The position numbers and the translations under genes are program-made. A stretch of 63,548 nucleotides of DNA, the filler included, from Asterionella formosa (lineage: Eukaryota): NCBI GenBank assembly GCA_002256025.1. It is 6 parts of 6 records of this genome, joined end to end, with 100 filler letters (N's around TTAATTAATTAA, not from the genome) between each part and the next. Parts side by side here need not be neighbours in the genome. Positions count along the whole stretch, not along the records: positions 1 to 19,790 come from NKIB01003535.1; positions 19,891 to 39,679 come from NKIB01003540.1; positions 39,780 to 59,567 come from NKIB01003545.1; 3 more parts are not named here. The stretch is one strand, 5' to 3'. Below the pieces are notes generated by a model that saw only the letters and a program-made list of their open reading frames with translations, was not told the DNA's origin and did no database searches. Every line of letters begins with the position of its first letter. Positions within the stretch are counted from its first letter, which is position 1. This document shows, one piece after another, positions 553 through 53,806 of the stretch.

Positions 553-2283
553 AAGAAAACACGAGAATGAACGTGATGGCTGGTTGTTGAGGATACCGGT
601 TTGTGATAGGCATCAATCCATGTCACAAATCATATTATAGTGATGTACATATCAACGCATCCGTATACTTAGATCCTATCCACCATAGTATAATACTATC
701 ATATTAACTGTTGACTTTAACAGTATACATTAAACGACAAACATATATATTAATTAACATACTTTATGACTACTTGATTTATTTTCTATGATGTCTTGGT
801 AATACTTGCGTACATATTTTATCGTACTTTATTGTCATTGTACTATTTTAACATAATCATATTTTGATCAAAATTTTATCATAAACATTTTATAAAATCA
901 TCATAGCTTTATGATCAGTGTATCATAGCTATGTGATGTACTTTATTCAATAATACGTATCATACTTTGGTGATGTATGAATCGATGTAACCCTATCATG
1001 ATATCACATTATCATCTTAGTATCAATCATGATGAGATGATTGGGAAGCAACTGTATTCTGCATCGTGCTATGGGGTATATTATTATATCACGCAATTTA
1101 GTAGCTACGTCACTCCGCCTGTAATGTACAAAAGTCGACAGTGCACATACTCACACGCTAATCAGGTTTGAGGCAACGGACAGTGGTTCGAACGAGCGAA
1201 TGATGATACCACGAGTACCAATTGTTCCAGCAAAAGAACTTGTCTCTCTATTGATGAGGATGACACGGACACCGACTTTTCCAGGAGCAAACAACAATGA
1301 AGAGACCCACTTGTCGCTCTATTGATGTCAACAAAGATGCAGACAAGTTCAACAGTGAATACAAGAACAAAATACCAATGAAAACAAGTCGACAGTGTGT
1401 GTACGCACACGCCAAGCAGGTTTGAGGCAATGGACAGTTCCAACAGGCAAGCAAATGACAATACAGATATCAAATTTTTCCTACGAGCAAACAACAATGA
1501 AAAGAGCCACTTGCTTTCGCTCTCTTGATGGTATCAAAGATGCGGACAAGTTCAATAGTTAATTCAAGTACAGTATGCCAAATGTAGAAACGAGCGAGCG
1601 ATATGAAAATGAAATGCATTTTAATCAGAATCATTTTATAACTATAGCTATGTGGACAGTAGTCTGTTACGCACATTTTCGTATCTCCTTCTATGCTGAA
1701 TCGAAATAGTAGATGTAGTATCATGTGAGAATTGAAAATGTCAACGAGAACAAGTAGAATGTGTTTGTTTTCGGGTTAATTGGCGAAATTGTCAAGCTGA
1801 AGTCGACGAAACGGATTTACTTTGCTTGTGCGCTGTGTGCGGAACCATTACGAGTTCGAATGATTTCTTCTCTCCTGTAAACCCTTATTTGAATGATTAT
1901 GAACAAAGGTTCACTGCACATGACGATTACTCGAAGATATAATGATCACTTGACCAACAAATTGAAGACGTTATCGCAAACATTCATTCCGCTTGTCATT
2001 GCTAGTATTTCGTTGCTGTTGCAAAAATCGGAGTGATGACGGATGGAAATGACGAGCCAAATTACATTACTTGAACTGGTACATTATCCTACCAAGAAAT
2101 TCGAATACAGGAATCAAATAGAAACAATACATATAATAATTAAATATATGTAGTCAAAAGGGTTACTTTTTAAATTAAAAATGCATTTATCAAAATTATT
2201 AGATGATATAACGAAATATTATGATCAGATGATCACAATCCTATGATGCATAATGGAAATATGATAGTTTTTATTTGCAGACG
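553..2283 (+). repeat. Dispersed ~1.7-kb repeat family, copy A (probable abundant mobile-element module)
   Basis: Collinear similarity to 30260-32026 and 49778-51493, from AATGAAC.TGATGGCTGGTTGTTGAGGATACCGGT to TTTGCAGACG. Left edge ragged, right edge sharp. Confidence 0.9.
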
Positions 2284-2690
2284 CTTCATAAGGTCTTCTC
2301 CACCATGTTGTAGGATCCGGCCAATTCCTCTTCAGTCTTAAATGTACTCAACCAATCCATTGTGATCAAGAAGAAAAGAGGGTTGGGCTTGTGAACTCGA
2401 TCTGTACTAATATGATCCATCAAATTCAATGCAGAAAATATCTTCATGGAACTCTGTGGACTGAGACCAAAGAATGAACAAAATCGTCAAAGTTTCGTTG
2501 CATCGCAAGTTCTTTTATTCCTATTCTCATGAAATCCTGCATGAAGAAGGCCCAGATCAAGAAAATCGGAAGCAGAGAGAGGGAGCATGGTGTGTAGAAG
2601 GAAAGGACAGGCGATTTTGTTTCATTCAAATTGTTCATGGAATCACTGATGCATTATGGGTTTGTTTGAAAATATATTTTGTTTGACTCT
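2281..2690 (+). pseudogene. Degenerate 2OG-Fe(II) dioxygenase-like (PhyH-like) fragment
   Basis: One frame reads FLFSLKCTQPIHCDQ (HxD at 2358-2366). Further on, GQAILFHSN then VHG across a frameshift (2605-2641). Several stops. Confidence 0.4.
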
Positions 2691-3269
2691 ATTATATCAC
2701 TGTTACCTGTCTTGTGTTTTGCCAGTATAATATGATTATATTATGACAGGTACTGGTAGTAGGTGGGGTGGGTGTGATGGCAGTGAAGGGTTGAAATGGT
2801 GACATCACACACTAAGCAAAATTGCGACTTTAAGCAAAACGGTCCTTCTTTGAGCAAAATCAATGGAAGCAAATGGCAGAATAAGCAAAACAGATTGGTC
2901 TCAATATTTTAGACTTCAAATAATATTAATTTAAATATAATTCGGAACAACAAGCTGGCCGGTTGATTAATCAAACGGCCATCAAAGAGTTACACATGTA
3001 TCAACTTGCAAGTGGAATCACCATATTGCCGGGACGACGACGTACGTAGCACAATAAGCAAAATTACCGTAACTTTTGGTATCAGGGTACCAGGTACCCT
3101 GGTACCAGTAGTAGACAACGCTTGTTGGTATACGAGGTTCTTCACGGACGATAAGACACGACAAAGATGATGATAAAAAAAGACTGCATAAAATAGTACT
3201 AATTCTATAATAACAACAACTTGAAAGGATTTGTCAGATTCTTAATTACTGTCGTCGATTTCTTCGAAG

Positions 3270-9317: not shown

Positions 9318-9413
9318 ACCAGCTACTGCATTTCGTAATAACATAATGAATGAAGGTATGAACACATATTCAAGGCTTTATTTTTGCTTGGTCGTCCTTC
9401 ACTGTAAACTTGT

Positions 9414-12799: not shown

Positions 12800-12936
12800 G
12801 TCCTTGGTGAAGGTTGGAAGGCCTAGAATCCTTTCAGAACATCAAGATAGCTATAGTATGGAAAAGCCAGAAATTCTTAAGTTGCCTGCTAAGTGGTCAT
12901 CGAAAACATGATGTGCCTATAATAACACTGAATACT

Positions 12937-29250: not shown

Positions 29251-30259
29251 AATACCGGTATCTGTGCCTGACCATAAATCAATACACTTACGCACACAAC
29301 AACAAAACAGGGTATGTCCGGTACACTTGCGAAACAGGAATTGTTTATTGTCAATATTCGTTAGATATTCAGACCAATAATTTCGTCATGGTCAAGTTGG
29401 ACTTGCTGTCTCATCGGCCCTATACCACGGGCAGCAGTACAAACACTCATGCAAGTGGGTACTACTTAGTAGTATGTAACAAGCCAAGAAAATATAATAT
29501 ATTTCGCTATAAGTATGTGTCTGCATTCCGCATAATTTTCAACTGCTCAGTGAGACATATTTCTTGGTTTTGCAACTTTTCAACCATTTCTACTTCAGAA
29601 GTGATGTCTCCCACATTTCCGCCTGTATTTTCATTCCTCGCATGAACTTGTTCATCAAATGAATGAGAATCACTGAGTTCTTCTTCATTATCAGCGATTT
29701 CAAGAGAATGAGGAGTAAAATACAGCACTGGATGGAACTGTGATTCTGTAGGAATAGAGTCTTCATCCGTTAAGAACAACTGTTTGGGTTTCCTCTTCGA
29801 AAAAATCTTTCCTTCTTTTCAATCTCTGCCACTATTGTATCGGCATACTTCATTATTATTTTTTCTGGAGTATTATGAATCTGTTCAAATTCATCTGTTA
29901 TTTGAGTGTATTCAAAGGAGCAAATCTTCGATTGATTTCATAAGTTTCTTCATCTTCTTTTCCGAAAACATAAAGTCGTGTAGTGTAAACAATGGAAGTA
30001 AGTCACGTTTTTTGTTTGACTGATCCTTTGCATGAAATCCATGAAATGCCATTTGGGAAGTTGTCAAAGGGCCAGAAGACTATGATGTAAAACAGTGGAA
30101 GGGAAACGCGGAGCTTTTTGCGGCGCTTGTGGAGTTGCAGCTGGTGTGATGGCAACCGAGTGTAGTAATTGTTGAACAGAGCACAGCAGTGTAATATGCA
30201 TGTTCCGCCAGTGTAGTGTTTACACAATACACATGCCGGCATCAATACAGCTATAACAA

Positions 30260-32026
30260 GGAAAAACGACACATCAATGAACATGATGGCTGGTTGTTGA
30301 GGATACCGGTAAATGATATATATCAAAAACATTTTAAGAAATCATAACAGTTCTATGACCAATGCATCATAGCTACATGATATACTTTATTCAATATTTC
30401 GTATCATACTTTGGTGATGTATGCATCGATGTAACCCTATCATGATATCACATTATCATCTTATCAATCATGATGAGATGATTGGGAACTGTAGTATTCT
30501 GCATTGTACTATGGAGTATGATATTATAACACACACTTTAGTATCTAAGTCACTCCTTTAATGTACACAAGTTGACAGTGCACATACACACACGCTAATC
30601 AGGTTTGAGGCAACGGACAGTGCTTCCATCGAGCGAATGACAATACCACGGGAACCAATTTTTCCAGCGGCAAACCGCACTGATGAAGGACACTTGTCCC
30701 TCTATTGATGAGGATGACACAGACACCGACTATTCCAGAAGCAAACAACAATGAAGAGACCCACTTGTCGCTCTATTGATGGTAACAAAGATGCGGACAA
30801 GTTCAACAGTGAATACAAGAACAACATACTAATGAAAACAAGTCGGCAGTGTGTATACGCACACGCCAAGCAGGTTTGAGGCAATGGACAGTTCCAACTA
30901 GCAAATGACGATATGGATATCAAATATTTCCTACGAGCAAACAACAATGAAGAGAGCCACTTGTTTTCGCGTATCAAAGATGCATAAAGGTTCAATAGTA
31001 AATACAAGTACAGCATGCCAAATGCAGAAACGAGCGACATGAAAAAGAAATTGTAATCAGAATCATTCTATAACTAAAGCTATGTGGACAGTAGTCTGTT
31101 ACGCACATTTTCGTATCTCCTTCTGTGCTGAATCTCAATAGTAGATGTAGCTAGTATCATGTGAGAATTGAAAATGTCAACGAGAACAAGTAGAATGTGT
31201 TTGTTTACGGGTTGATTGGCGAGATTGTAATGCTTGTGATCGACGAAACGGATTCACAATGTGCGCTGTGTGCGGAACCATTACAAGTTCGAATGATTTC
31301 TTCTCTGTAAATCTTAATTGAATGAAAGGTTCAATAGTAAATACAAGTACAGCATGCCAAATGCAGAAACGAGCGACATGAAAAAGAAATTGTAATCAGA
31401 ATCATTCTATAACTAAAGCTATGTGGACAGTAGTCTGTTACGCACATTTTCGTATCTCCTTCTGTGCTGAATCTCAATAGTAGATGTAGCTAGTATCATG
31501 TGAGAATTGAAAATGGCAACGAGAACAAGTAGAATGTGTTTGTTTACGGGTTGATTGGCGAGATTGTAATGCTTGTGGTCGACGAAACGGACTCACAATG
31601 TGCGCTGTGTGCGGAACCATTACGAGTTCGAATGATTTCTTCTCTGTAAATCTTAATTGAATGAATATGAACAAAGGTTCACTGCACATGACGATTACTC
31701 GAAGATATCATGATCACATGACCAACAATTGAAGACGTCGTTATCGCAAACAATCATTCCACTTGTCATCGCTAGAATTTCGTTGATGGAAATGACGAGC
31801 CAAATTACATTACTTCAGCTGGTACATTATCCTACCAAGAAATTCGAATACAGGAATCTCATAGAAACAATACATATAATAATTAAATATATGTAGTCAA
31901 AAGGGTTACTATTTAAATTACAAGGGCATTTATCAAAATTATTAGATGATATAACGAAAAATTATGATCAGGTGATCACAATCCTATGATGCATCATGGA
32001 AACATGATAGTTTTTATTTGCAGACG
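30260..32026 (+). repeat. Dispersed ~1.7-kb repeat family, copy B (5' internal deletion; 339-bp internal tandem duplication at 30986-31663)
   Basis: Collinear with copies A and C. The block starting AAAGGTTCAATAGTAAATACAAG occurs at 30986 and 31325. Confidence 0.9.
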
Positions 32027-33060
32027 TTCACTGCTGACCTGTTTAAGAGTACTTGCAACAGTATGGACAAGTTACTTGAGATTGGTACTATGGTCAAGGA
32101 TTTTCAGAGAGATCCTGAATTTTCCATGAAGAAACTCTGTCTTCGATTGATCAATGCGTATGAGAATGAGTCCTTTCTCCCTCAACGCTATAGGTTGGTC
32201 CCCTTCAGTCCTGAGTCTATGAGTCTGATCTGCAAGGGATACAGGACTCATGTGGATTATCCACTGCTCTATTTTCTTGCTTTTTTCACTCATGTGAGCA
32301 AAAGTCTTGAGGCTTTAGGAAGATTGTACATTCTTGGTCGCATCAATGTATGTGACCCTAATGCTGATGATAGACAGTGCAAGTGGAACATTAGGATCAC
32401 CCAAATTCCCCTTGACACCTTCGCCACCTCTAAAATCCCTTTGGAGATCAATGAGATTATGACTTTCTTGTCCAAATCTTTTGGTAATGATTGGAATTCT
32501 GTCGTTACCAACCAAGCTTTATACGCAAATCAGCTCCAGAAGAAACTTCATGGCAACTTTGTCATTACCATTGAAGAGAGGGAGAACTTGGAGAAGCCCA
32601 TAGCTAAGGTTGTTGTGGAGCAAAAAGAGTTCCCAATTTCTATTGCTTGTATTCACTATCTGGTGACAGGTAATCATAACTCAATTTGAAAGTTACCTAT
32701 GTATCTAAATCGCCATCAGAACCAGCCAACGTTTAGCTATCATCGTCCAAAAACTCGACAAAATCGGCCTTTTCTGCAGTCGCCAAAATATCGGAATGAG
32801 AATTATTATTAAGTGCCGAAACGTCATCATCGGAATGGTGGTCGTGTGCCGGAATTTTTAGTCCTACAATCTCCTGTACAAAAATTCCATTGTAAGTGCC
32901 CGCTTCCACCTATAGAATATGATTGGTGAACTTGAATTACATTCCTCTGCTTGATTGGCCTGGTTTGCGAGGTCTTGCAAACCCATGCCGGCCACATTGG
33001 ATTGACATGTAACATTTTCTTGGGTGTACTGACAGTCCGGTGCTATATTCATGAAGGGTA
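32024..33060 (+). pseudogene. Unknown ORF (open ~221 codons from the repeat's splice acceptor) decaying into a dioxygenase-like THAG motif
   Basis: ORF 32018-32689, then broken frames giving YIP.. / LVCEVLQTHAGHIG..CN (His codon at 32984). Confidence 0.4.
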
Positions 33061-33529
33061 CCAGTAGATGATCATCGCTCATTGGACATACGCGTACCGC
33101 TCCTTGAGTGCACTTTCAAATAGTTGCCAAGCCGTCGCGTTGTATACATGACACATAGTCGTCGATCGGAGTATAGATTGTAGTACTGGTATAGTATGCA
33201 CATCAAGCGATGAAGAATCTAAATATATTAAGTCTTTTCAATACCGGTATGTCGAACGGATTCAATGCATAGCATATAAAATCGTTTATTGGAGTATAGA
33301 GTGTCCATGCATATATGTTGATCGTATTTTTAGGGTAAATATACATACAGCAACTAAGAGTGTTTATATAAATATTTAGCGATTTCGACAAGGAACCTAT
33401 GTATGCATTCGCATATTTCCACTGATTGAAATATTTCAAATGGAATCACGTCATTCAAAAATAGCTAATTAAATTCTTAATTCCAGGGAATTTTGGCAAC
33501 CCTAAGCAATATTTTAATTTTTGCCTAGG

Positions 33530-37559: not shown

Positions 37560-38290
37560 AATTGAGTATTGGGCGCTGGCAGAAAGAATATCAACTGATT
37601 TCTTCAGGGTGCATGTCCTCAGGATCCCTGCATTTAATGGTGAGCAACCCAAAGGTCATCTCAATTCTAATACGTAGTTGCGAAAGGAAATAGATAAATG
37701 CATCTTCGTTTGTTGCTCTTTGACTTCCAACAAAGGGACATATGACTGATCAGTCCATGGATGTGTAAGCGGCATCGCCTACTATGTATTGTCCTGGACG
37801 AAGCATGGATTTAATCTGAAAAAGCTGTGTCCTTGATTTTTAAATGCCATCTGATCTGGACATTTTCCTGATGCCATGACACCGAAGTATAGAAAACAAC
37901 CGTTACTGTCGCAAGCAGCTCGAACATTCAATCCATAAGACATATCACGCCCAGACCAAAATGCTTGAGGGACGCCATCACAATCCCTTTTTCTTTGTTT
38001 GGTGATGATTGGCTGTAAATAGGCATCATAAGAACGGAATTTAATAGATAGTGCTGGGCATGAATTCACAATTCCATAGACATGGTAAATGTCTGTGAGG
38101 TTTACGCCACAAGAAGCCAGCGAAGACAGCTGGTAAGGATCAACTCGGGACAAGTGTGCTGAATTGTTATGGAAGGTCGAAGTAGCACCAGTAGGTGATT
38201 GAAAGCTTAAAAGGACATGCGATTTTCACTATGAAAATCTATTCTCATAGAGAAGGCTTGTGACATGATCATTTCAGTCATGTTGTTCAT
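37560..38290 (-). mobile_element. PIF/Harbinger (DDE_Tnp_4) transposase pseudogene
   Basis: RMS..AFNHLLVLLRP, FWSG..SYGLNVRAACDSNGCFLYFGV..SGKCPD, VGDAAY, YFLSQLRIRIEMTFGLLT. Stops and frameshifts. Confidence 0.85.
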
Positions 38291-39779: not shown

Positions 39780-40415
39780 TAAAGGCTCATCCTCCAATCA
39801 AGGAATTTCAAGTTCAGAATATTGTGGATACCAGTTTGCTGCATCATATGCAGCTCGAGCTACTATTTATAGTACATTGTGTATTTTCACCAGGAACATG
39901 GGTTTTCCAACATGATTTGATTACAGATATGTAATTGATATTGGGATATCAATGTCGATAAGTGATAATTGACAAATGACTACGTCGTGATACTTTCCGT
40001 CGTCGTTCTTGCGATTACAAGGTTGTTGATGAGGTTTTAATCCTATCGGATAATCCTACTACCTTGGATAACCATGGACGAGGTCCTTATTCTATTTATT
40101 CAAGTATATGCCAATGGTCCAGTTACTTTTCAACAAACTATGCATACTACGGACTGAATTAATATCCATTACATCAAACCTTTTCAAAGGTAAAAGGTTT
40201 TCCCTTGGTGTGGGAGAGTGAGCGATCTTGCGCATCAATACAGATGTATATAGGGTTAGTGTTATATCATGTATGTATAAGAACTCAATAATGAGAGAAC
40301 TCGACTAACCCGCATTGTATACTTTGGTGTCGACTTGGAGAACGAGTTACACACAAGGATTAACAAATAAGCTCATATATTCAACAAATACTACTACTTC
40401 TAGTTAGATACTTCA
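39780..40415 (+). mobile_element. Ty3/Gypsy remnant: integrase C-terminus, polypurine tract and 3' LTR (from 40219)
   Basis: Broken frames read AHPPIKEFQVQNIVDT..ASYAARATI, DYKVVDEVLIL, GRGPYS, IKPF. GGTGTGGGAGAG precedes TGAGCG...CA (ending at 40386 or 40415). Confidence 0.8.
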
Positions 40416-41729
40416 CCTGGTACCAGGTACCTGCTACAATACAAGTACAAGTACATAACAGGTACCGGTACCGTCATGTACATTCCTGTGTACTCTGGAC
40501 CAGGGTGGTAAATGCAAAAAATTCAAACACCACTGCAATGCAACTTTTTACGACCGTAGTGAAAGCTAATGTACTACCGGTACCTGGTACCAGGTGTTAC
40601 CAGGTAGTAGCAGTTAAGCAGCACTGTGTACAAAGGTAGACTACAAGGTACCGGTACCAGTGATCTAGCGAAATAGTATTTGTATTGATGTACCGGTATG
40701 TATAACCGATGTATCTGATAGCTAGTAAAAATTGCTTACCGCCATGCATATGTATGTTCACTGCCTGTTAATTTACAAGCGGAATTAAAGTGCTAAAGCC
40801 AAGGCATATCCTGATGCTCTGTTGAACAATGAACAACTTGATGATGCTGGTGGCAACAAGTGCCAATGCTTAAGGAGGTCTTGGCATGACGTTGCTCTGC
40901 TGCATTGGACTTGAGCCAATTGAGTGGAATTGCGGAGGAGGTTGTGATTGCAGAAACAATTCATGTCACTTGCTTTTGCGCCTTGATTCTACAGTGGCTG
41001 CTATTGATTTGAATGCTTAATATGTTGAATGTAGAAACTCTGCTTATTTGATGGAGGAGAATTGTCCTGAAATTCCCCTGCTAGTAGCTAGCTAATTCGA
41101 GTGGAAGGTAGCTAAATTGAATGGCTGCCTGGTGAACTTGGCACTTGTTACTATCCTTGCTTCTGAAAAGTCGACATTTGCAGCATAGTAATGTGGGGTT
41201 GCTGCAGTTGACCGTGTTGCTGTCGTCCTTTGTGCATCCAAACATGCAAAGGATGCATTGACAATGACAATGACAATGACAAAACAAAGCCAGTTTTTTC
41301 AGTGCCTTGATGTGCCACCTTGTTAGGGCCACACAGACCACAGAAGCATGATATGTATTTGCCGCATTGCAAGTAACAACTTCAGAATGCTGGATAGATT
41401 GAGTTTATCTTTTGCGCCTCTTTCTTCATTGGCCTTGTTACAAATTATAAGTTGAAGAAAGGCAAAGTGAAGGCTTTATTCAGTGCCAATGAGCGACGAT
41501 GCAATGCAAAACCCTTTTTGGAAAAACTTCGACAGGAAATTGGTGCCATCACCACAATTGATTCTGAAGAAAAGAAAGCAATGATGAGCGATGTGGAGGA
41601 CAAAACTTTGGCTTGCTTGTTGCTACATCGTCTCATGATTGTAGAATATCGAAAAAACTACTAGCTAGTAGTAGTATATATATTTTTGTGTTAATGATAG
41701 TCAATGTATTGTTATTTCCAGAGAACTAA

Positions 41730-44039: not shown

Positions 44040-46193
44040 CTAACAAAGAAGGTGATCAAGAGCTGTGATGTAAAATGGACAGTTGAAAATATTGGAATCT
44101 AACCGTAGGTAATTGAGACTTGTCAAGAGTCCAATCTCTGTGGGTAGTGTGCCAGTAAGTTTATTGTTGTTCAAAAGTAGAGCATGGAGACTTGTCAAGT
44201 GTCCAATCTCTGTGGGTATTGTGCCATTGAAAGTATTGGAATGCAACCATAGAGATTGGACACTTGTTAAGAGTCCAATCTCTGTGGGAAGTGTGCCAGT
44301 GAAAGTATTGGAGGACAAAAGTAGAGCATTGAGACTCGTCAAGTGTCCAATCTCTGTGGGTAGTGTGCCATTGAAAGTATTGGAATGCAACCATAGAGAT
44401 TGGAGACTTGTTAAGAGTCCAATCTCTGTGGGAAGTGTGCCAGTGAAAGTATTGGAGAACAAAAGTAGAGAATTGAGACTTCTCAAAAGTCCAATCTCTG
44501 TGGGAAGTGTGCCAGTAAGAGAATTCCTATAAAAAACTAGAGTAGTGAGATTTGTCAAGAGTCCAATCTCTGTAGGTAAGTTGGATTCGCAAAGCCCCTC
44601 ATATGATAACTCAGTAGTGTTACAAGTATATAGTTTCCCACACACAAAAATTGAGTTGGTGCAACGCAAAGTGGTTGGGTTACTTGAAGGCTGACCAGTA
44701 GGATTGCTTGTAGGCTGGGTGGTAGGTAATCTTGTTGGTTGACTGGTAGGCCAAAATGGCGAAGCAGATGGTGAAGAAACAGGGTTCAAGGAATGGAATG
44801 GTGCAGGAAGCGTGCCAGTGAAAGTATTCTTGTCCAAATCTAGAAAATTGAGATTTGTCAATAGTCCAATCTCTGTGGGAAGTGTGCCATTGAATGAATT
44901 TCCGTACAAATTTAGATAATCGAGACTTGTCAACTTTCCAATCTCTGTGGGAAGTGTGCCACTGAAAGAATTTCCGTACAAAGATAGAAGATTGAGACTT
45001 ATCAGATTTCCAATATCTGTGGGAAGTGTGCCACTGAAAGAATTTCCGTACAAAGATAGAAGATTGAGACTTGTCAGATTTCCAATATCTGTGGGAAGTG
45101 TGCCAGTAAGTCCATTGTTGTCCAAATATAGAAGTTTCAGACTTGTCAAGAGTAAAATCTCTGTGGGAAATGTGCCATGGAGAGTATTGCCATTAAAATC
45201 TAAAAGAGAAAGACTTCTCAAGAGTCCAAACTCTGTGGGAAGTTTGCCAGCAAAACTATTGGATCTCAAGTAAAGAAAATTGAGACTTTCTTTCAAAAAT
45301 CCGATCTCTGTGGGAAGTTTGCCAGTGAAGAAATTTGAATTCAAAAATAGATTTATGAGACTTGTCAAGCGTCCAATCTCTGTGGGAAGTGTGCCAGTAA
45401 AAGCATTGTTATACAAACCTAGAAAATTGAGATTTGTCAACAGTCCAATCTCTGTGGGAAGCGAGCCATTGAAAAAATTGGAGTCCGAATTTAGAGAAAG
45501 GAGATTTGTCAAAAGTCCTATCTCTGTGGGAAGTGTGCCAGTAAGAGAATTTCTATAAAAAAGTAGAGTAGTGAGATTTGTCAAGAGTCCAATCTCCGTA
45601 GGTAAGTTGGATTCGCAAAGCCCATTAGACGATAAATCAGTAGTGTCACAAGTATATAGTTTCCCACACACAAAAATTGAGTTGGTGCAAGTTGGCTTGT
45701 TTATGGGCTGGATGGTGGGAAAACTGGTTGGCTTGTTTGTGGCTTGGATGGTAGGAAAACTAGTTGGCTTGGTGGTTGGCTTGCTTGTGGGCTGAATGGT
45801 AGGAAAACTAGTTGGCTTGCTTGTTGGTCTGATGGTAGGAAAACTAGTTGGCTTGGTGGTTGGCTTGCTTGTGGGCTGAATGGTAGGAAAACTAGTTGGC
45901 TTGCTTGTTGGTCTGATGGTTGGAAAACTAATTGGCTTGGTGGTTGGCTTGTTTGTGGTCTGGATGGTAGGAAAACTAGTTGGCTTGGTGGTTGGCTTGT
46001 TTGTAAGCAGGATGGAATAAGCATCTTGCGTTTTACTTTTAACTATTGTGGTAACTTGTGTCCCGTCTCCTACCACTTTGTCACGCCTCGCTTTATGGGT
46101 TGGAAATGTGTTTGGGTGAGCCTGTTGACAGAAAAGCAGGAAATTGACAAAACCAACACAGTAGCAAATAAGACATGGATATCTCACCATCAT
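44040..46193 (-). CDS. Probably secreted/surface leucine-rich-repeat protein: PT-repeat stalk, Cys cap + 11 LRRs, PT linker, Cys cap + 7 LRRs
   Basis: Intact intronless ORF (open from 46313). Likely start MMVRYPCLICYCVGFVNFLLFCQQA. Plant-type 24-aa consensus LPTEIGLLTxLxxLxLxxNxFxGT. Confidence 0.88.
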   Translation of the reverse strand: MMVRYPCLICYCVGFVNFLLFCQQAHPNTFPTHKARRDKVVGDGTQVTTIVKSKTQDAYSILLTNKPTTKPTSFPTIQTTNKPTTKPISFPTIRPTSKPTSFPTIQPTSKPTTKPTSFPTIRPTSKPTSFPTIQPTSKPTTKPTSFPTIQATNKPTSFPTIQPINKPTCTNSIFVCGKLYTCDTTDLSSNGLCESNLPTEIGLLTNLTTLLFYRNSLTGTLPTEIGLLTNLLSLNSDSNFFNGSLPTEIGLLTNLNFLGLYNNAFTGTLPTEIGRLTSLINLFLNSNFFTGKLPTEIGFLKESLNFLYLRSNSFAGKLPTEFGLLRSLSLLDFNGNTLHGTFPTEILLLTSLKLLYLDNNGLTGTLPTDIGNLTSLNLLSLYGNSFSGTLPTDIGNLISLNLLSLYGNSFSGTLPTEIGKLTSLDYLNLYGNSFNGTLPTEIGLLTNLNFLDLDKNTFTGTLPAPFHSLNPVSSPSASPFWPTSQPTRLPTTQPTSNPTGQPSSNPTTLRCTNSIFVCGKLYTCNTTELSYEGLCESNLPTEIGLLTNLTTLVFYRNSLTGTLPTEIGLLRSLNSLLLFSNTFTGTLPTEIGLLTSLQSLWLHSNTFNGTLPTEIGHLTSLNALLLSSNTFTGTLPTEIGLLTSVQSLWLHSNTFNGTIPTEIGHLTSLHALLLNNNKLTGTLPTEIGLLTSLNYLRLDSNIFNCPFYITALDHLLC

Positions 46194-46404
46194 GAAGAAA
46201 GAGGTTCGAATCTGCAGTACTGGAGTTCTGAAGATCATACAAGAAACTTGGGACATTCCCTTCGGCTGCAGTGCTACAAACCAAGATGTTAACGCATGAG
46301 AGGAAAAGTGCAAGTTTCATTTTGCAATGGAATGGCAATATCATATATTTCATGCTTGAACAAGCAAACCTCTCCGAATTAAAAGGATGTTGAATTTGTG
46401 ACAA

Positions 46405-47152: not shown

Positions 47153-47569
47153 ACTACGGCACTTTTTCGAATTTATTTCTAAAATGACGTATTAATGTTA
47201 CTTTTCTAAAATATTATGTTACTCTTTTTGAAATCTTATGTTACTTTTTCCCTAACTTATTCGGGTTTAAAAAAATTATTTCATTTCTTGAATAATTATA
47301 TGATCACACCAATAATTATGTGCGTTCATGACAATATATGTTAACCAACTAGCCATTGCGACAGTATAAAAGCAAAATTATGCTGCTTTCAACACATTCG
47401 CCAATTCCGATTCACTTCTTTTTTTTCCTGCTCTGACATATTTCTTTGATTTCAAGTAGTAGTTGATGTTGTAGTCACATTGTTTAGTCATTTTTGATTG
47501 CAGAGATTACAATAGCCAGCCAGATTAGAAATAAAGCACCGTTGTTCCTTGTTGAGCATCCTTGAGCAT

Positions 47570-48140
47570 TGCATGTCACCATAGTGAATCGTACTTGAGA
47601 TGTGCCACAATGGCCTTCTCCGTTTTGGAGCAGCTACAAAATAGTCTACAGCGATAACTCTAGCAAGTACAATATAGAAAAAGAAGCAAAGGATGAGCAG
47701 CTGTCATCGATTGAATTCGTAAATTCGTTAAAAAAACAGCTGTTGCATATTTTAACATTCAATGCATGTTGCCATAGTGAGTCAAAATTGAGATGTGCCA
47801 CAACGACCATCTCTTTTTCAGAGCGGATACAAATAGACTACAGCGATAACTCTAGCAAGTACAATATAGAAAAAGAAGCAAAGGATGAGCAGCTGTCATT
47901 GAATGAATTCGTAAAATTGTTTAGAAACAGCTGTTGCATATTTTAACATTCAATGCATGTCGCTGTAGTGAGTCAAAATTGAGATGTGCCGCAATGGCTG
48001 TCTCTTTTTCAGAGTGGCTACAAATAGTCTACAGCGATAACTCTAGCAAGTACAATGAAGAAAAAGAAGCAAAGGATGAGCAGCTGTCAACGATTGAATT
48101 AGTAAAATTGTTTAGAAACAGCTGTTGCATATTTTAACAT
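47570..48140. repeat. Tandem repeat, ~191-192-bp unit x3
   Basis: TAGCAAGTACAAT recurs at 47661, 47853 and 48044. Confidence 0.9.
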
Positions 48141-48287
48141 ACTGCCTGACATAAGTATAGTATAAGTATAACTGGTATACTGCTGGATGCCAAAAAATGG
48201 CTCGCAGTTAACTGCAGTATAAAATCACCAACCTATGCTGTCCATTGTATAATCTATTGTACCACCTGGTACCCTGGTAGTACCAAT

Positions 48288-49050
48288 TGAAGTATCTAAC
48301 TAGAAGTAGTAGTATTTGTTGAATATATGAGCTTATTTGTTAATCCTTGTGCGTAACTTGTTCTCTAAGTCGACACCAAAGTATACAATAAGGGTTAGTC
48401 AAGTTCTCTCATTATTGAGTTCTGATATATATGATATAACACTAACCCTATATACATCTGTATTGATGCGCAAGATCGCTCACTCTCCCACACCAAGGGA
48501 AAACCTTTTATCTTTCAAAAGGTTTGATGCAATGAATATTAATTTGTTCTGTAGTATGCATGGTTTGTTGAAAAGTAACTGTGCCATTGGCATATACTTG
48601 AATAATAGAATAAGGACCTCGTCCACAGTCATCCAAGGTAGTAGGATTGTTATCCAATAGGATTAAAATCTCATCACCAACTTTGTAATCACAAGAACAA
48701 TGACAGAATCTATCACAATGTATACATTTGTCAATTATCACTTATCGACATTGATATCCCAATATCAAGTGCATATCTGTAATCAAAGGAATATTTAATA
48801 TCATATCATGTTGGAAAATCCAGCCATATTCCTGGTGAAATAGGCAATATGCTAGAAATAGTAGCTCGAGCTGCATGTAGTTCGAGCTGCATATGATGCA
48901 GCAAACAGGGTATCCACAATATTTTGAGCTTGAAATTCCTTGATTGGAGGATGAGTCTTTAACATAATTCGTGGACTGTTACTGATAGATTGATGTAAAC
49001 GTTCACAGATAGAATTTGCTGTTGGAATCTTGACTGTAATAGTCCCATTG
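48288..49050 (-). mobile_element. Second Ty3/Gypsy remnant (integrase tail + 3' LTR), inverted copy of 39780-40415
   Basis: Reverse-complement match. Reads PTANSICERLHQSI, DYKVGDEILILLDNNPTTLDDCGRGPYSIIQVYANGTVT..INIHCIKPF. Confidence 0.85.
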
Positions 49051-49449
49051 ATTTGAATTTTAATCATGCCCATCATCAGGATACCTACCTGTATATATTT
49101 AGCACACATTTTTTTGCATGTAAACATACATACCAGTATGCGATACAATTGATTTGAATTCAAATCATGTCCATCATAGTGACACCTATACACCGGTATG
49201 TTGCACAGATATTTGTATGTAAATGTACTACGTGTATGATTGATTTGAATTTGAATCATGCCCATGATAGGGATAGGGTTAGGGAGTGACATTGGTATCT
49301 ATTGTCACCTTATACTCAGGCTACAACACGTTCTTGTACAGACAAGGTGACGACATTGGTATCGTCTATTGGTGATGAATGGGACGCAATAACGCGTTGT
49401 TCTCATACAAACAAGGTGACATTGATATCTATTGTCACTGCGTACTTAG

Positions 49450-49762
49450 GTTAAAAGTAAGATCAAACAAGCTAAAAGTTCTTATCTGTGATCTTATTCA
49501 TTGGCAATCATATCTGACCTAAAAGTATGATCTGTAATTTTTTAGTATTAAGATATATTCATGTTAAAGTAAGATCAAAAAAGCTGAAAATTGTTATCTG
49601 TGATCTTTTTTATTGGCAATCGTATCTAACCAAAGTATGATCTATAATTTTTTAGTAGTAAGATATATTCATGTTAAAAGTAAGATCAAAAAAGCTGAAA
49701 ATTGTTATCTGTGATCTTATTTATTGGCAATCATTTCTAACCAGGAGGCATGATCTGTAATT
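49450..49762. repeat. Tandem repeat, ~112-bp unit x ~2.8, abutting repeat copy C
   Basis: AAAGTAAGATCAAA at ~49454, 49566 and 49677. Confidence 0.88.
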
Positions 49763-49777
49763 TGCATGTTCCGAATA

Positions 49778-51493
49778 AAGAAAAAACGACACAACAATGA
49801 ACGTTATGGCTGGTTGTTGAGGATACCGGTGTGTGATATGTATCAATCCATATCACAAATCATATTATAGTGATGTACATATCAACGCATCCATATAGTA
49901 CTGAGATCCTATCCACCGTATAATACTATATCATATTAACTTTTGGCTTTTACTGTATACATTAAAAGTCGAATTTATATATTAAGTAACATAATTATGA
50001 TTTTTATTTTTATTTTCTGTGATGTATCGATAACACTAGGGTACATATTTTATCGTATTTTATTGTCATTGTATTACTTAAACATGATCACATTTTGATC
50101 AAAATATATCAAAAAGATTTTAAGAAATCTTTACATTTCTATGATCAATGCATCATAGCTATGTGATATACTTTATTGAATATTACGTCCTACTTTGGTG
50201 ATGTATGCATCGATGTAAACCTATTGTGATATCACATTATCATCCTATCAATCATGATGAGATGATTGGGAACTGTAGTATTCTGCATCTTACTATGGAG
50301 TACGATATTATAACACGCACTTTAGTAGTAGCTAAGTCACTCCTGTAATGTAAACAAGTCGACAGTGCATATACACACACACTAATCAGGTTTGAGGCAA
50401 CGGACAGTGGTTCCAGCGAGCGAATGATGATACCACAGGTACCAATTTTTCCAGCAGCAAACCGCAATGATGAAGAACACTTTGTCCCTCTATTGATGAG
50501 GATGATACGGACACCGACTTTTCCAGGAGCAAACAACAATGAAGAGAGCCAGTCCACTTGTCGCTCTATTGATGGTGACAAAGATGCGTACAAGTTCAAC
50601 AGACCCAGTGAATACAAGAACAAGCAACATACCAATGAAAACAAGTCGGCAGTGTGTGTATGCACACGCCAAGCAGGTTTGAGGCAATGGACAGTTCCAA
50701 CAAGCAAATGACGATATGGATATCAAATAATTCCTACGAGCACACAACAATGAAAAGAGCCACTTGCTTTCGCTCTCTTGATGGTATCAAAGATGCAGAC
50801 AAGTTCAATAGTAAAAACAAGTACAGCATCCCAAATGCAGAAATGAGCGATATGAAAAAGAAATTGTAATCAGAATCATTCTATAACTATAGCTATGTGG
50901 ACAGGAGTCTGACTCTCAATAGTAGATGTGGTATCATGTGAGAATTTAAAATGTCAACGAGAATAAGTAGAATGTGTTTGTTTACGGGTTGATTGGCGAG
51001 ACTGTAATGCTGGTGGTCGACGAAACGGATTCACAATGTGCGCTGTATGCGGAACCATTACGAGTTTGAATGATTTCTTCTCTGTAAACTCTTAATTGAA
51101 TGATTATGAACAAAGGTTCACTGCACATGACAATTACTCAAAGATATAATGATCACATGACCAGCCAACAATTGAAGATGTCATTATCGCAAACAATCAT
51201 TCCACTTGTCATCCCTAGTATTTCGTCGTTGTTGCAAAAATCATAGTGATGACGGATGGAAATGACAAGCCAAATTACATTATTTCAGCTGGTACATTAT
51301 CCTACCAAGAAATTCGAATACAGGAATCAAATAGAAACAATACATATAATAATTAATTATATGTGGTCAAAAGGGTTACTATTTAAATTACAAAGGCATT
51401 TATCAAAATTATTAGATGATAAAACGAAAAATTATGATCAGATGATCACAATCCTATGATGCATCATGTACATATGATTTTTTTTTGCAGACG
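49778..51493 (+). repeat. Dispersed ~1.7-kb repeat family, copy C
   Basis: Collinear with copies A and B. Ends TTTTTTGCAGACG. Confidence 0.9.
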
Positions 51494-52426
51494 GTCCATT
51501 CCCACATTAAATTCTTCATTATTGTTTCATGTCTCAAAAGTGTAGACTGTAATTTCTTCTGGATTCCTGCACCTTATTCAATCATGAGTGCCTCGAAAAA
51601 CCCCAAGAACGCGTTGTCTGCTCGGAATGAAGATGAAGATGTTTCTCTGGTGACAATTGATCTTGTTTCCATATTGAAGGGTAATTATTCTGGCGAAATT
51701 GACCAGTTTGTATGCTACACGAAGGACAAAGCTTCGTCGTTTAATGTGTAATGTGTACGACAGGGTCTCCAATAAATCAGTTCTCGACCTTGCCCGGAAG
51801 CCTTCTGATATCAAGAAAATCGTTCCTTGGGACAATTCTTCTCCTTTGTCTGAATACTTCGAATCTGTTTTGGAGGATGAGGTATGGATAAAGATCAAGA
51901 TTGATCGCTCAGATGGCCCCCGCAGCACAGTTCCTTTCTCATGGTCTAAATCACGAATCGCCCATTCTTCTCGATTATTTTCGTGACTGTCTGTTTGCCG
52001 CCGAACAACTTGAGTGTACAGAAGTAAGCGATTGCGCGTTAGCCGCAACTCTTGCTTCAGAAGAGCAGAATAGTAGTATTATTGATTAGTTGTCCTACTT
52101 CGAAATGAAATGCCAATTCTTTGTCCTTTGTAGTCAAAGAATATAATAGATTGGTAAGTATAAAATATAACTCAATCATGCATTTGCCCCATCCCGCCCT
52201 ATGAAAACTACCAGATAGTAGTACTATCCAGCATACATACCGGTAATCATAAATTTATAATATTGCATACATGTGGGTGCAGGTCCATCACCAGACCACA
52301 ATACCAATTTTACTGAATCCATTTCTTTTTTATTTCCATATGGTTATATTGCATGATCACTTGCTTAGTAGTACTACCGTAATAGCAGTGATATCTGTCG
52401 TGTTGTAAATTATATGACAGATCATC

Positions 52427-53806
52427 ATGCAAAATAATTTACCAACAAGCAACAATGGTGATCTCGAACAGCCTAAGTCATCCCGACTTGGGAAAATTAT
52501 CCCCATTCTTCCAGTCCACCACTTCCTGAGAACACATATCGTGTTGTGGTTAAATGGAGACTTCGAGTACTGCTTGATCAGCACCGTGACCACACTCACT
52601 GTATTTTACTTCGGCATTTCCTACAAGGTCATGTCGAAGACACCGTGAATGCGGACCTTGACAGTTTATTGAGTCAGTGAATTCTGTCAACTTCCATTAA
52701 AAAGAAGGGTGGAAAGAAGATTGGAAGGCATGCACTTGTTATTGATCATAGCAATGTCAAGTTTGCCAGAAGCTTTGTTGATTAGGTTTGACCTTCGAAG
52801 CAATGTGACCGCATTAAACATCTCAACATTTTCCTGCCAAAAGTTGCAGACACGATGAAAACTGTTCATTTTATAATTGATGATGATTTCATGCTACAGA
52901 TTGAAGGAAAATATCTTCCAAGATATTTTTGTTGCATTTGTTTCTCCTCCCAGACCAATTTTTCGGAACAAAAGATTGTCCTTTTCTTGACCTGGTGGGC
53001 TGTAAACAAATTTTGGGGCAACTCGGAAATGATGAGGCTACCAATTCACTCATCAAGAACACACTCGGTTCTAAAACTATACTCTGTCGTGATTGCTATA
53101 GGAAAATGACAGGCAAGGTAATGTCATTGATTGCCTATGGAGCATTCACTGACAAGATGGTGATCTCGAATACAACATCAACATGTTTTGGAAAACTTTG
53201 TCTATGGCTATTCCCGGTTCTGTCCTGCAACCACTTGTAAGTGACGCAACAGATGTCAGGAAGAGTATGCTGGTGCCTTGCACCTGTTAATTGTTGCACA
53301 CTGCTGTAAATCACTCTAATGTTCCTCAGGAGCCAGATTTTGACTATCAGCATGCAGAACTGGTAGTCAATGACTTCGAAAAGTGCCTTCCTTGGGGATT
53401 GGATATGTCCCTAGGTGCTGGTGGTTTCTCTATAAATGTCTGGGATGGTGAGTCGTTTGAGTCTAACCTCATTTTAGATCGAAAAGGTAAATGTAAAGCG
53501 GAATTCAAGCAACATGCCATGGAACATCATGTCAACCAACATGCGATGCTTCTTCGCATTCCCTTCAAGTACATCTTCTTAATGCGAAGTGTTATGGTTC
53601 ATGCAGGTGCTATGGATAATCACCTAACAAATGGTGAATTGAGACTTCACATGTATTTGTCGCCTGGTTCCACTCCAGAGCAAAACTCAGTTGCTATTTG
53701 CAAAAGATTTGGAAATGCCATTAACACAAAAGCAAATGGTACGGAGTGAGTCCCTCCATCACTAGTTTCGTTTTTGCTTGATTCCTATGGGGAAAGATGG
53801 AAGTAA
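52427..53806 (+). pseudogene. Degenerate gene ending in a 2OG-Fe(II) dioxygenase-like double-stranded beta-helix domain
   Basis: ORF 53291-53749 has PQEPDFDY (HxD position with Asp in place of His), GFSINVW, RIPFKYIFLMRSVMVHAG and RLHMYL. Upstream frames are broken. Confidence 0.55.

What the first reader, a model, noticed from the sequence alone, without database searches (positions are those of the whole stretch)
2281..53806. All three cassette copies are followed by divergent 2OG-Fe(II) dioxygenase-like remnants
Seen: after copy A, QPIHCD (2358) and GQAILFHSN/VHG (2605-2641). After copy B, YIP..LV...THAGHIG..CN (32984), with no clear HxD. About 1.8 kb after copy C, PQEP(D)FDY..GFSINVW..IP...VHAG..RLHMYL (53324-53660). 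The three show no visible DNA similarity to each other. Established: HxD...H is the iron-binding triad of 2OG-Fe(II) dioxygenases, and fungal KDZ and Plavaka transposons carry TET/JBP dioxygenases. Inference: a diatom transposon family carrying a diversified dioxygenase cargo, possibly acting on modified bases or chromatin. All three copies here look decayed and the motifs are short.
Basis: partly seen in the sequence, partly recalled or inferred. Interest (0 to 1): 0.75.

Follow-up and report, generated by a model that had tools for sequence, protein, structure and literature searches.

The report
Dead transposon oxygenase-like gene, one copy
Only one of the three flagged stretches is real: it is a broken copy of an unnamed, probably iron-dependent oxygenase-like gene that, in an intact relative, rides next to a Plavaka transposase, while the other two are chance letter patterns.

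Summary
The three ~1.75-kb repeat copies are real (544-2289, 30258-32030, 49774-51499). The claim that each is followed by a dioxygenase remnant holds only for copy C.

Window 52455-53806 (+) is a dead copy of an intronless 457-codon gene. Against an intact relative (L009) it is 95% identical, with 6 frameshifting indels and 4 in-register stops. Four of 25 family-conserved residues are changed, including the first His of HxD.

The gene belongs to a small orphan family: 26 cluster representatives among 1.84 billion, with no Pfam, PHROGs or NCBIfam match. In 12 intact members the signature H-x-D...87 aa...H...14 aa...R is invariant or nearly so. In L009 the intact gene lies about 390 nt downstream of an intact 1006-aa ORF with a Pfam Plavaka transposase domain. 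RNA-library contigs from three studies cover the coding region.

The DSBH fold could not be shown. Both AlphaFold runs failed (pLDDT 33 and 39.5). A language-model search placed the domain nearest PhyH-type oxygenases, which is only a lead.

Regions A and B match neither the family profile nor Pfam. Their motifs lie in short ORFs and, for A, in three different frames. Such motif pairs occur by chance at about 60% of Hx[DE] sites. B's flank is a truncated copy of an unrelated repeated ORF.

The closest known systems are red-algal Plavaka PAG3 and fungal TET-carrying Plavaka elements.

The parts
544..2289 (+). Repeat ('cassette') copy A
   Evidence: blastn between the copies gives 84-87% identity. 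The right end is ...TTTTTATTTGCAGACG.
30258..32030 (+). Repeat copy B, with an internal 339-bp duplication
49774..51499 (+). Repeat copy C
2292..2686 (+). Region A motifs (QPIHCD, GQAILFHSN, VHG). These are chance matches in three frames, not a gene remnant of this family.
   Evidence: No Pfam hit at E<=10. No family-profile hit. Negative codon scores. The motif pair is common by chance.
32027..32725 (+). Truncated copy of an unrelated, repeated ORF of unknown function, starting exactly at the right end of repeat B
   Evidence: Five relatives at 71-89% identity with no Pfam domain. tblastn shows P0060 residues 35-247 starting at 32027.
32936..33067 (+). Region B motif ORF (THAGHIG), 43 aa. This is a chance match.
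   Evidence: No Pfam hit. No family-profile hit. Codon score -0.18.
52455..53806 (+). Pseudogene of the orphan HxD...H...R family (oxygenase-like cargo gene). It is read in several frames.
   Evidence: phmmer finds 26 hits. The family HMM hits three frames. It is 95.1% identical to the intact L009 CDS, with 9 indels (6 frameshifting) and 4 in-register stops.
53336..53338 (+). Codon for the first metal-ligand position. It is Asp here, where 11 of 12 intact members have His (HxD becomes DxD).
53600..53602 (+). Codon of the conserved distal His (VHAG). It is kept in the window copy, but the invariant Asp three residues before it is Val.
51642..51829 (+). Stretch homologous (86%) to the spacer that follows the transposase ORF in L009. 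The transposase itself is absent from the window.
   Evidence: blastn. tblastn with the L009 transposase gives no hit at E<=1.
54396..54586 (+). 65-nt tandem array (2.9 copies) downstream of the pseudogene, with two exact palindromic sites TCGCAGC-N9-GCTGCGA
54803..56875 (+). Rest of the shared element. It holds three further ORF pieces colinear with L009 (59-93% aa identity), of unknown function.
   Evidence: tblastn and blastn against L009. No Pfam hit at E<=1.
29557..30238 (-). Decayed copy of the sequence that lies upstream of, and is read through into, the family gene in contig L010. It sits 20 nt left of repeat B.
   Evidence: blastn at 92% identity to L010 1410-2085. tblastn at 65% over 179 aa.

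Best explanation
Window 52455-53806 (+) is a dead copy of an intronless gene of about 457 codons. The gene is cargo of a Plavaka-type (CACTA/EnSpm-superfamily) DNA transposon family that is repeated in this alga and its relatives.

The encoded protein belongs to a small, unannotated family. Its C-terminal ~120 residues carry an invariant pattern: T..Q..HxDY ... PW ... GG...N.W ... P.......R.D.VH.G...N....GA.R.H.Y.

I read this as the Fe(II)-binding 2-His-1-carboxylate triad (H303, D305, H390, L009 numbering) plus the 2-oxoglutarate-binding Arg (R404) of an Fe(II)/2OG-dependent oxygenase. By analogy with fungal TET-carrying transposons and red-algal Plavaka PAG3, the intact protein would most likely modify DNA or chromatin of its own element to escape silencing.

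Shown:
- the family exists and its residues are conserved;
- the intact gene sits beside a Plavaka transposase in one near-identical contig;
- RNA-library contigs cover the gene;
- the window copy is decayed.

Inferred: the oxygenase fold, its activity, its substrate and an anti-silencing role.

The stretches after repeat copies A and B are not remnants of this or any recognisable dioxygenase. The 1.75-kb repeat is a separate repeat that merely lies near element fragments.
For: Family. phmmer of the 152-aa ORF finds 26 proteins at E<=1e-3 among 1.84e9 representatives.

Conservation. Twelve intact members share 26-85% pairwise identity in the domain. D305, H390, R404, H406 and Y408 are 12 of 12. 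H303 is 11 of 12. The spacing is 87 aa from HxD to the distal His and 14 aa from that His to Arg.

Transposon link. A degenerate-motif scan of metagenome contigs gave 13 loci, of which 6 are true family members. L009 is 83-95% identical in DNA to window 52453-56875. It has the intact 457-codon gene about 390 nt downstream of, and on the same strand as, a 1006-aa ORF. That ORF matches Pfam Plavaka PF18759 at E 1.2e-10, 41.6 bits against a cut-off of 26.3, over profile positions 34-320 of 325.

Decay of the window copy. It shows 6 frameshifting indels, 4 in-register stops, and H303D, D387V, A402E and T287stop.

RNA. Contigs from 3 RNA runs of 3 studies cover 52453-53795, 52453-54124 and 52448-53720. 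The tool's truncated joint table lists no RNA joint inside these spans. All three carry frame-changing indels at 52478 and 52685, two at 52911 and one at 52516, at or within a few bases of indels between the window copy and L009.

Fold lead. The language-model atlas gives recognition 2941 for the intact L009 domain. The three nearest named clusters are 51-93% PhyH (PF05721), at scores 0.93, 0.92 and 0.92, and 20 of the 30 hits fall in the PhyH set. The window ORF itself has PhyH at rank 2 with score 0.88.

Precedent, from passages I read. Red-algal Plavaka elements carry PAG3, with a putative 2OG-oxygenase domain whose best HHpred hit is 2OPW_A at e 0.016 (10.1101/2025.02.11.637652). Fungal Plavaka elements carry TET/JBP genes (PMC12730594).

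A and B rejected.
Against: - No family member matches any Pfam 2OG family, nor any other relevant model. Eleven proteins (9 family members and the L009 and L010 ORFs) were scanned at E<=1. All 30 rows of A7 were scanned at E<=10 in Pfam and E<=1 in PHROGs and NCBIfam.
- A profile search of PDB sequences gave 4 hits, all with E>=0.88 and none an oxygenase.
- Both AlphaFold2 runs failed, with mean pLDDT 33.1 and 39.5. The fold is therefore unverified.
- My hhalign panel gave at most 0.56% probability to PhyH, AlkB-like, 2OG-FeII_Oxy_3 or TauD. The panel's own positive controls also failed, so it has no power.
- The transposase adjacency was seen in only 1 of the 3 family loci that have 6 kb or more of context. 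L003 and L007 show no transposase in their flanks.
- One intact member (L003) has Tyr at the first His position.
- The atlas score is only a lead by the tool's own calibration. Of shuffled sequences, 4-10 in 100 reach 0.9, and the shared-feature count of 148 is below the 170 typical of same-family hits.
Confidence: 0.68

Rival explanations
1. Each of the three 1.75-kb repeat copies carries its own diverged 2OG-Fe(II) dioxygenase cargo, so A and B are also decayed dioxygenase genes.
For: The quoted motifs exist at the stated coordinates. Family-related sequence does lie near two of the three repeat copies, though at B it is upstream and on the other strand.
Against: - A and B have no hit to the family profile; all window hits outside C have E>9.
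- They have no Pfam hit at E<=10.
- The A motifs lie in three frames.
- Codon scores are negative.
- B's flank is a truncated copy of a different repeated ORF that starts exactly at the repeat's end.
- The loose motif pair occurs at 61-63% of Hx[DE] sites by chance.
Confidence: 0.03
2. The family is real and transposon-borne but is not a 2OG oxygenase. The conserved His, Asp, His and Arg residues serve another metal-dependent or DNA-binding function, for example a different cupin-like enzyme or a nuclease.
For: - No profile or PDB sequence match to any oxygenase.
- No usable structure model.
- hhalign's best local alignment to PhyH paired the family's DN...NGALR.H with PhyH's D...eNG...PGSH, not with the metal ligands.
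- L003 lacks the first His.
Against: - The invariant HxD...H...R order and spacing (87 and 14 aa) fit Fe(II)/2OG oxygenases. The comparison with PhyH and TET spacings is recalled, not tested.
- In the atlas search, 20 of the 30 hits fall in the PhyH set.
- The low-confidence models place beta strands on the motif segments.
- Plavaka elements carry oxygenase cargo in two other lineages, from the paper passages I read.
Confidence: 0.2
3. The family gene is an ordinary host gene, or part of another kind of repeat. It merely lies next to a Plavaka transposase in L009 and is not cargo of that transposon.
For: Only one locus shows the adjacency. L003 holds its copy among host-like genes (pyruvate kinase, protein kinases, an AAA ATPase). 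L007 shows no transposase within 6 kb. No terminal repeats or target-site duplications were defined here.
Against: - Many near-identical fragments and pseudogene-like pieces exist. Most of the 26 representatives are 53-180 aa fragments at 45-85% identity.
- The run with most of the stretch laid 63,925 contig pieces on it.
- The gene, the spacer after the transposase and three further ORFs are colinear between L009 and the window, while the sequences around them differ.
- The window copy is a dead, transposase-less derivative.
Confidence: 0.09

Closest known systems
PAG3, an accessory gene of giant Plavaka (and Zisupton, Mutator and Fanzor-encoding) elements of red algae (bioRxiv 10.1101/2025.02.11.637652; passages read)
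   Same: It is a gene beside a Plavaka DDE transposase and has no InterPro or Pfam domain. Its oxygenase nature was inferred only remotely, with PHYHD1 (2OPW_A) as the best HHpred hit. Here the nearest language-model clusters are also PhyH-type. Short tandem arrays with inverted repeats lie next to the gene. In the window this is a 65-nt array of 2.9 copies with TCGCAGC-N9-GCTGCGA, about 600 nt downstream.
   Different: Sequence homology to PAG3 could not be tested, because no PAG3 sequence was available to the tools. No ParB-like N-terminal domain was detected by Pfam. No PAG2-like methylase/SET gene was found among the neighbouring ORFs. The element is much smaller than the 17-19 kb red-algal families.
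TET/JBP dioxygenase genes carried by fungal DNA transposons (KDZ, Plavaka and others; PMC12730594, abstract and sections 3.2 and 3.4 read)
   Same: An Fe(II)/2OG-type signature (HxD...H...R) sits in a gene next to a Plavaka transposase. A role in escaping methylation-based silencing is presumed. Some fungal types (PE type) are likewise too diverged for ordinary profile detection.
   Different: No family member matches Pfam Tet_JBP PF12851 at E<=1 or at E<=10. PE-type proteins have HxE where this family has HxD. No structural similarity to CMD1, NgTET or CcTET could be tested.
PhyH (phytanoyl-CoA dioxygenase) family, PF05721
   Same: It is the nearest named clusters by protein-language-model features (0.93, 0.92, 0.92; 20 of the 30 hits fall in the PhyH set). 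The distance from HxD to the distal His is 87 aa, similar to PhyH as I recall it.
   Different: No Pfam PhyH hit in any of 30 members at E<=10. hhalign against 28 actinobacterial PhyH domains gave 0.56% probability. hmmsearch scores were no better than for shuffled sequences.

Membership tests
Fe(II)/2-oxoglutarate-dependent oxygenase superfamily (DSBH fold) | 2-His-1-carboxylate triad HxD/E...H | tested here: met
   In 12 intact family members, H303 is 11 of 12, D305 is 12 of 12 and H390 is 12 of 12. The window copy itself fails, with H303D.
Fe(II)/2-oxoglutarate-dependent oxygenase superfamily (DSBH fold) | Basic residue binding the 2OG C5 carboxylate, about 10-20 residues after the distal His | tested here: met
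   R404 is 14 residues after H390 and invariant in 12 of 12. That this Arg binds 2OG is inferred, not shown.
Fe(II)/2-oxoglutarate-dependent oxygenase superfamily (DSBH fold) | Double-stranded beta-helix fold | tested here: inconclusive
   Two AlphaFold2 runs gave mean pLDDT 33.1 and 39.5, so no fold search was run. The hhalign panel had no power, because its positive controls reached at most 1.7%.
Fe(II)/2-oxoglutarate-dependent oxygenase superfamily (DSBH fold) | Significant profile match to a curated 2OG-oxygenase family | tested here: not met
   No Pfam, PHROGs or NCBIfam oxygenase model was hit by any of 30 members. The PDB profile search was negative.
TET/JBP (Pfam PF12851) | Match to the Tet_JBP profile | tested here: not met
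   No hit at E<=1 for 11 proteins or at E<=10 for 30 members.
TET/JBP (Pfam PF12851) | Structural similarity to TET2, NgTET, CcTET or CMD1 | not testable with these tools
   No confident model was obtained.
PhyH (Pfam PF05721) | Match to the PhyH profile | tested here: not met
   No Pfam hit. hhalign gave 0.56%. Only a language-model resemblance of 0.93 was found.
Plavaka transposon accessory gene (PAG3-like or TET+ Plavaka-like cargo) | Gene lies inside or beside an element encoding a Plavaka DDE transposase | tested here: met
   In L009 the intact gene lies about 390 nt downstream of a 1006-aa ORF with PF18759 at E 1.2e-10. This is one locus only. The window itself has no transposase.
Plavaka transposon accessory gene (PAG3-like or TET+ Plavaka-like cargo) | Element termini and target-site duplication (PlavakaA TGT..ACA or PlavakaB CATCA..TGATG, 2-3 bp TSD, per PMC12730594) | tested here: inconclusive
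   Neither end of the element is contained in L009 or defined in the window. Homology to L009 stops at about 51642 and 56875 with no recognisable terminus.
Plavaka transposon accessory gene (PAG3-like or TET+ Plavaka-like cargo) | Sequence homology to red-algal PAG3, and a ParB-like N-terminal domain | not testable with these tools
   No PAG3 sequence was available. Pfam finds no ParB-like domain in the L009 or L010 proteins at E<=1, which does not exclude a remote one.

The most novel reading that the evidence does not exclude
An unannotated protein family, invisible to Pfam, is a Fe(II)/2OG oxygenase carried as cargo by Plavaka-type DNA transposons in a stramenopile-type alga. The element appears highly repeated and is present in RNA libraries. 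The family would be the counterpart of red-algal PAG3 and fungal transposon TETs. This would mean that capture of a nucleic-acid- or chromatin-modifying oxygenase by CACTA-superfamily transposons recurs across three distant eukaryotic lineages, and that the intact protein edits a DNA or chromatin mark on its own element.
Probability: 0.45. Interest if true: 0.65.

Novelty: new variant of a known kind. Interest (0 to 1): 0.42.

Why it matters
Transposons that carry their own DNA- or chromatin-modifying enzyme are rare. They bear directly on how mobile elements escape silencing. Oxygenase cargo on Plavaka elements has been described in fungi (TET/JBP) and, in a preprint, in red algae (PAG3).

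My literature searches found no report for diatoms or other stramenopile algae. 'Plavaka'+'diatom' returned 4 papers, of which the 2 listed were not on this. 'Plavaka' alone returned 20 papers, 16 listed. 'diatom/transposon/2OG/accessory gene' returned 41 papers, 10 listed.

If the orphan family found here is a true oxygenase, it adds a third lineage and a sequence family that current domain libraries miss. An intact gene that is present in RNA libraries (L009 type) could be assayed.

For this window itself the result is modest. It holds one dead copy, and two of the three flagged stretches are chance.

Tried and rejected
1. Whole-genome census. No genome is held for this window.

2. The search for related loci with alignments A2 and A3 was not run, because no stretch was conserved enough. 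It was replaced by a degenerate DNA motif scan. The same motif gave 0 loci in viral contigs and 1 chance hit in prokaryote genomes.

3. Structure. AlphaFold2 on P0053 with 16 sequences gave pLDDT 33.1, and on the L009 domain with 30 sequences gave pLDDT 39.5. Both models are unusable, so no fold search was run and no jobs are left.

4. Profile-profile panel built here from prokaryotic reference domains. It used 28 PhyH, 10 2OG-FeII_Oxy_2, 6 2OG-FeII_Oxy_3, 25 TauD, 24 Cupin_2, 22 GNAT and 22 adh_short sequences.
   - The family scored at most 0.56% against every panel member.
   - Known DSBH families also failed to find each other (at most 1.7%), so the test is uninformative.
   - Nine loci from genomes flagged unpublished were left out.
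   - Pfam Tet_JBP was not found in 401 Actinomycetota genomes searched, so no TET reference set could be made.

5. hmmsearch cross-scoring against shuffled sequences gave no signal.

6. Pfam, PHROGs and NCBIfam scans of all 30 members found nothing relevant. PDB sequence searches were negative: 0 hits for the single ORF, and 4 hits at E>=0.88 for the profile.

7. The search for homologous proteins.
   - With A2 it returned only 6 proteins.
   - With 'longer' lengths it returned none, and the length band of 1172-3345 aa was unsuitable.

8. Depth in laid contigs. The spacer 51584-52503 shows much lower summed depth than the repeat end and the element. The tool states that such depths cannot rank parts, so I draw nothing from it.

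9. Earlier notes of this scan gave nothing.

10. I considered and dropped the idea of an inversion joining 29557 and 52453. The shared 'breakpoint' is simply the start codon of the gene (ATG at 52455, also ATG in L009 and ACG in L010). Upstream of it the copies differ.

Full report
**The repeat and the observation**

The window holds three copies of a repeat of about 1.75 kb: A 544-2289, B 30258-32030 (with an internal 339-bp duplication) and C 49774-51499. They are 84-87% identical. Similarity ends for all three at ...TTTTTATTTGCAGACG, and the downstream sequences share no DNA similarity.

In A, however, QPIHCD, GQAILFHSN and VHG lie in three different reading frames, in ORFs of 73 aa or less. 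In B the motif lies in a 43-aa ORF.

**Regions A and B are chance**

- None of the ORFs in A or B hits Pfam at E<=10.
- A profile of the family later found for C, run over the six-frame translation of the whole window, scores only the three C frames (E 2e-43, 8e-7, 7e-6). Every other hit has E>9.
- Codon-usage scores of the motif-bearing ORFs are negative, -0.08 to -0.21 bits per codon. The null for ORFs of 55-80 aa is 0.01 +/- 0.16.
- With motif definitions as loose as those used, 79 of 129 Hx[DE] sites on the + strand and 85 of 135 on the - strand have an xH[A/G/S] 150-330 nt downstream in some frame.

The long ORF directly after repeat B (32027-32725) belongs to a different repeated ORF. 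It has five relatives at 71-89% identity and no Pfam domain. The match starts at residue 35 of the relative P0060, exactly at the repeat's end. The repeat therefore abuts a truncated copy of that ORF.

**Region C is real**

phmmer of the 152-aa ORF (53291-53749) against 1.84 billion cluster representatives found 26 proteins at E<=1e-3, 10 of them at E<=1e-10, the best at 2e-28. Most are short fragments. Six are 301-669 aa. None has a Pfam domain, and the sources give no name beyond 'hypothetical protein'.

A degenerate DNA motif from the conserved block gave 13 metagenome loci. Six of them are true members by the family HMM; the other seven are GC-rich chance hits. The same motif found nothing in viral contigs and one chance hit in 185,579 prokaryote genomes.

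**The intact relative and the transposase**

Locus L009 (8.5 kb) is 83-95% identical in DNA to window 52453-56875 and colinear with it. It carries an intact 457-codon gene starting MVISNS. Its ATG corresponds to window 52455.

About 390 nt upstream on the same strand lies an uninterrupted 1006-aa ORF. It matches Pfam Plavaka transposase PF18759 at E 1.2e-10 and 41.6 bits (cut-off 26.3), over profile positions 34-320 of 325.

The window has no trace of the transposase (tblastn, no hit at E<=1). It does keep 188 nt (51642-51829) homologous to the spacer that follows the transposase in L009. Three further ORF pieces downstream (54803-56655) are shared with L009 at 59-93% aa identity and have no Pfam match.

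Of the three family loci with 6 kb or more of context, only L009 shows a transposase. L003 holds its copy among host-like genes, and L007 shows none.

**State of the window copy**

I aligned the window copy to the L009 coding sequence of 1371 nt.

- It is 95.1% identical (1268 of 1334 aligned columns).
- It has 9 indels, 6 of them frameshifting, and 4 in-register stops.
- It differs at 4 of 25 family-conserved positions: T287stop, H303D, D387V and A402E.

It is a dead, transposase-less copy.

**Expression and copy number**

The stretch occurs in 24 public runs of 17 studies, mostly freshwater and lake metagenomes and one algal sample. Four runs were laid.

- Contigs of three RNA libraries from three studies cover 52453-53795, 52453-54124 and 52448-53720. 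The joint table, which the tool cut short, lists no RNA joint inside these spans, so I saw no sign of an intron.
- These contigs carry frame-changing indels at 52478 and 52685 (all three runs), 52911 (two runs) and 52516 (one run). These lie at or within a few bases of indels that separate the window copy from L009.
- One RNA contig continues upstream with the L009-type leader.

The tool warns that DNA can be present in RNA libraries. Transcription is therefore likely but not proven. In the best DNA holder, 63,925 contig pieces were laid on the 5.5-kb stretch, which fits a highly repeated element.

**What the protein looks like**

In 12 intact members with 26-85% pairwise identity in the domain, nearly all conservation sits in the last ~120 residues.

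- Invariant in 12 of 12: T291, Q300, D305, P321, W322, G332, N336, W338, P377, R385, D387, V389, H390, G392, G401, A402, R404, H406 and Y408.
- In 11 of 12: H303 (L003 has Tyr) and five further positions (T287, Y306, G331, I372, N396).

The order and spacing are H-x-D, 87 residues, H, 14 residues, R. This is what Fe(II)/2OG oxygenases show. The comparison with individual enzymes is recalled, not computed.

The protein-language-model atlas gave the intact L009 domain a recognition value of 2941. It placed the domain nearest to PhyH-type clusters (0.93, 0.92, 0.92), and 20 of the 30 hits fall in the PhyH set. The decayed window ORF gave PhyH at rank 2 with 0.88. By the tool's own calibration this is a lead, not proof.

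**What could not be shown**

The fold remains unverified.

- Two AlphaFold2 runs failed, with pLDDT 33.1 and 39.5, so no fold search was made.
- Pfam (E<=10), PHROGs and NCBIfam (E<=1) found no oxygenase model in any of 30 members.
- PDB sequence and profile searches were negative.
- A home-made hhalign panel against PhyH, AlkB-like, 2OG-FeII_Oxy_3 and TauD, with Cupin_2, GNAT and adh_short as controls, gave at most 0.56%. The known DSBH families did not find each other either (at most 1.7%), so the panel has no power.
- HMM cross-scores equalled those of shuffled sequences.
- TET/JBP membership is not supported. No Tet_JBP match appeared at any threshold used.

**Relation to the repeat**

The linkage shown is to the Plavaka transposase, not to the 1.75-kb repeat.

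- At C the gene starts 956 nt downstream of the repeat on the same strand.
- At B a decayed copy of the sequence found upstream of the gene in contig L010 lies 20 nt to the left of the repeat, on the opposite strand (29557-30238).
- L009 has only a 66-nt piece of the repeat, upstream of the ATG and in reverse orientation.
- Nothing family-related lies near A, although only 543 nt upstream of A are in the window.

The repeat and the element thus co-occur in this transposon-rich stretch but in no fixed arrangement.

**Comparison with what is known**

Fungal transposons, including Plavaka, carry TET/JBP genes. PE-type proteins are so diverged that HHpred gives e 1.4 to CMD1 (PMC12730594, abstract and sections 3.2 and 3.4 read).

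In red algae, giant Plavaka elements carry PAG3. It has no InterPro domain, a putative 2OG-oxygenase domain (best HHpred hit 2OPW_A, e 0.016), a ParB-like N-terminus, and tandem arrays of inverted repeats beside the gene (10.1101/2025.02.11.637652, passages read; supplements closed).

The family here resembles PAG3 in three ways: its Plavaka context, its invisibility to profile libraries and its PhyH-ward lean. In addition, a 65-nt array of 2.9 copies with two exact TCGCAGC-N9-GCTGCGA palindromes lies about 600 nt downstream of the pseudogene. Homology to PAG3 could not be tested.

Searches for Plavaka with diatom, and for diatom transposon 2OG accessory genes, found no report of such an element in diatoms.

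**Verdict**

A transposon-borne oxygenase-like gene is likely, but it occurs as one dead copy rather than three. It is linked to Plavaka rather than to the repeat, and it is not a demonstrable TET/JBP.
- I put 0.97 on C being a pseudogene of this family.
- I put about 0.7 on the family being a Fe(II)/2OG oxygenase.
- I put about 0.85 on it being transposon cargo.
- I put 0.03 on A or B being related remnants.

Noticed in passing
window 2270-2289, 32011-32030, 51480-51499: The right end of all three repeat copies is a T-rich run followed by GCAG (TTTTTATTTGCAG|ACG). This looks like a 3' splice acceptor. RNA-library contigs that hold this end continue into other sequences after a similar ...TTTCCAG (loose ends).
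   Followed up: partly
window 29557-30238 (-) and locus L010 1410-2085: In contig L010 the family gene has ACG instead of the ATG start, and its ORF reads on upstream for about 190 more codons. That upstream sequence is 92% identical to the window stretch just left of repeat B, where it is broken into several frames. L010 ends exactly where the repeat would begin.
   Followed up: partly
window 54396-54586: A 65-nt tandem array (2.9 copies) carries two exact palindromic sites TCGCAGC-CTCTACAGA-GCTGCGA, between the pseudogene and the next shared ORF. The expected number of such sites in shuffles is 0.09, but the two sites are copies within one array.
   Followed up: partly
window 53906-54186: A direct repeat of about 85-140 nt (tcgaccaagtc.gacagaagtgtcatgtt...) occurs twice just downstream of the pseudogene and is also present in L009.
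   Followed up: no
window 37785-38225 (-): An ORF has a weak Pfam DDE_Tnp_4 (PIF/Harbinger-type) match, E 0.0014, below the curated cut-off. It may be a remnant of a different transposon.
   Followed up: no
window 39916-40423 and 48280-48787: Inverted repeats of about 500 nt (86-93% complementary) stand about 8 kb apart. They enclose a 758-aa leucine-rich-repeat ORF (44043-46316, -) built of 72-nt tandem units.
   Followed up: no
locus L003 9812-11305 (-): This intact 498-aa family member has Tyr instead of the first His of HxD. It lies among host-like genes (pyruvate kinase with introns, AAA_16 ATPase, protein kinases). It may be a domesticated or inactive copy.
   Followed up: no
locus L009 1-82: The first 82 nt of L009 repeat (99%) the 3' end of the family gene (window 53761-53842). 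This suggests a second, adjacent partial copy or an assembly join.
   Followed up: no
window 2286-2486 (-): A 66-aa minus-strand ORF ends 3 nt outside repeat A and has the only positive codon score among the A ORFs (+0.13, about the 90th percentile of the null). It was not identified.
   Followed up: partly
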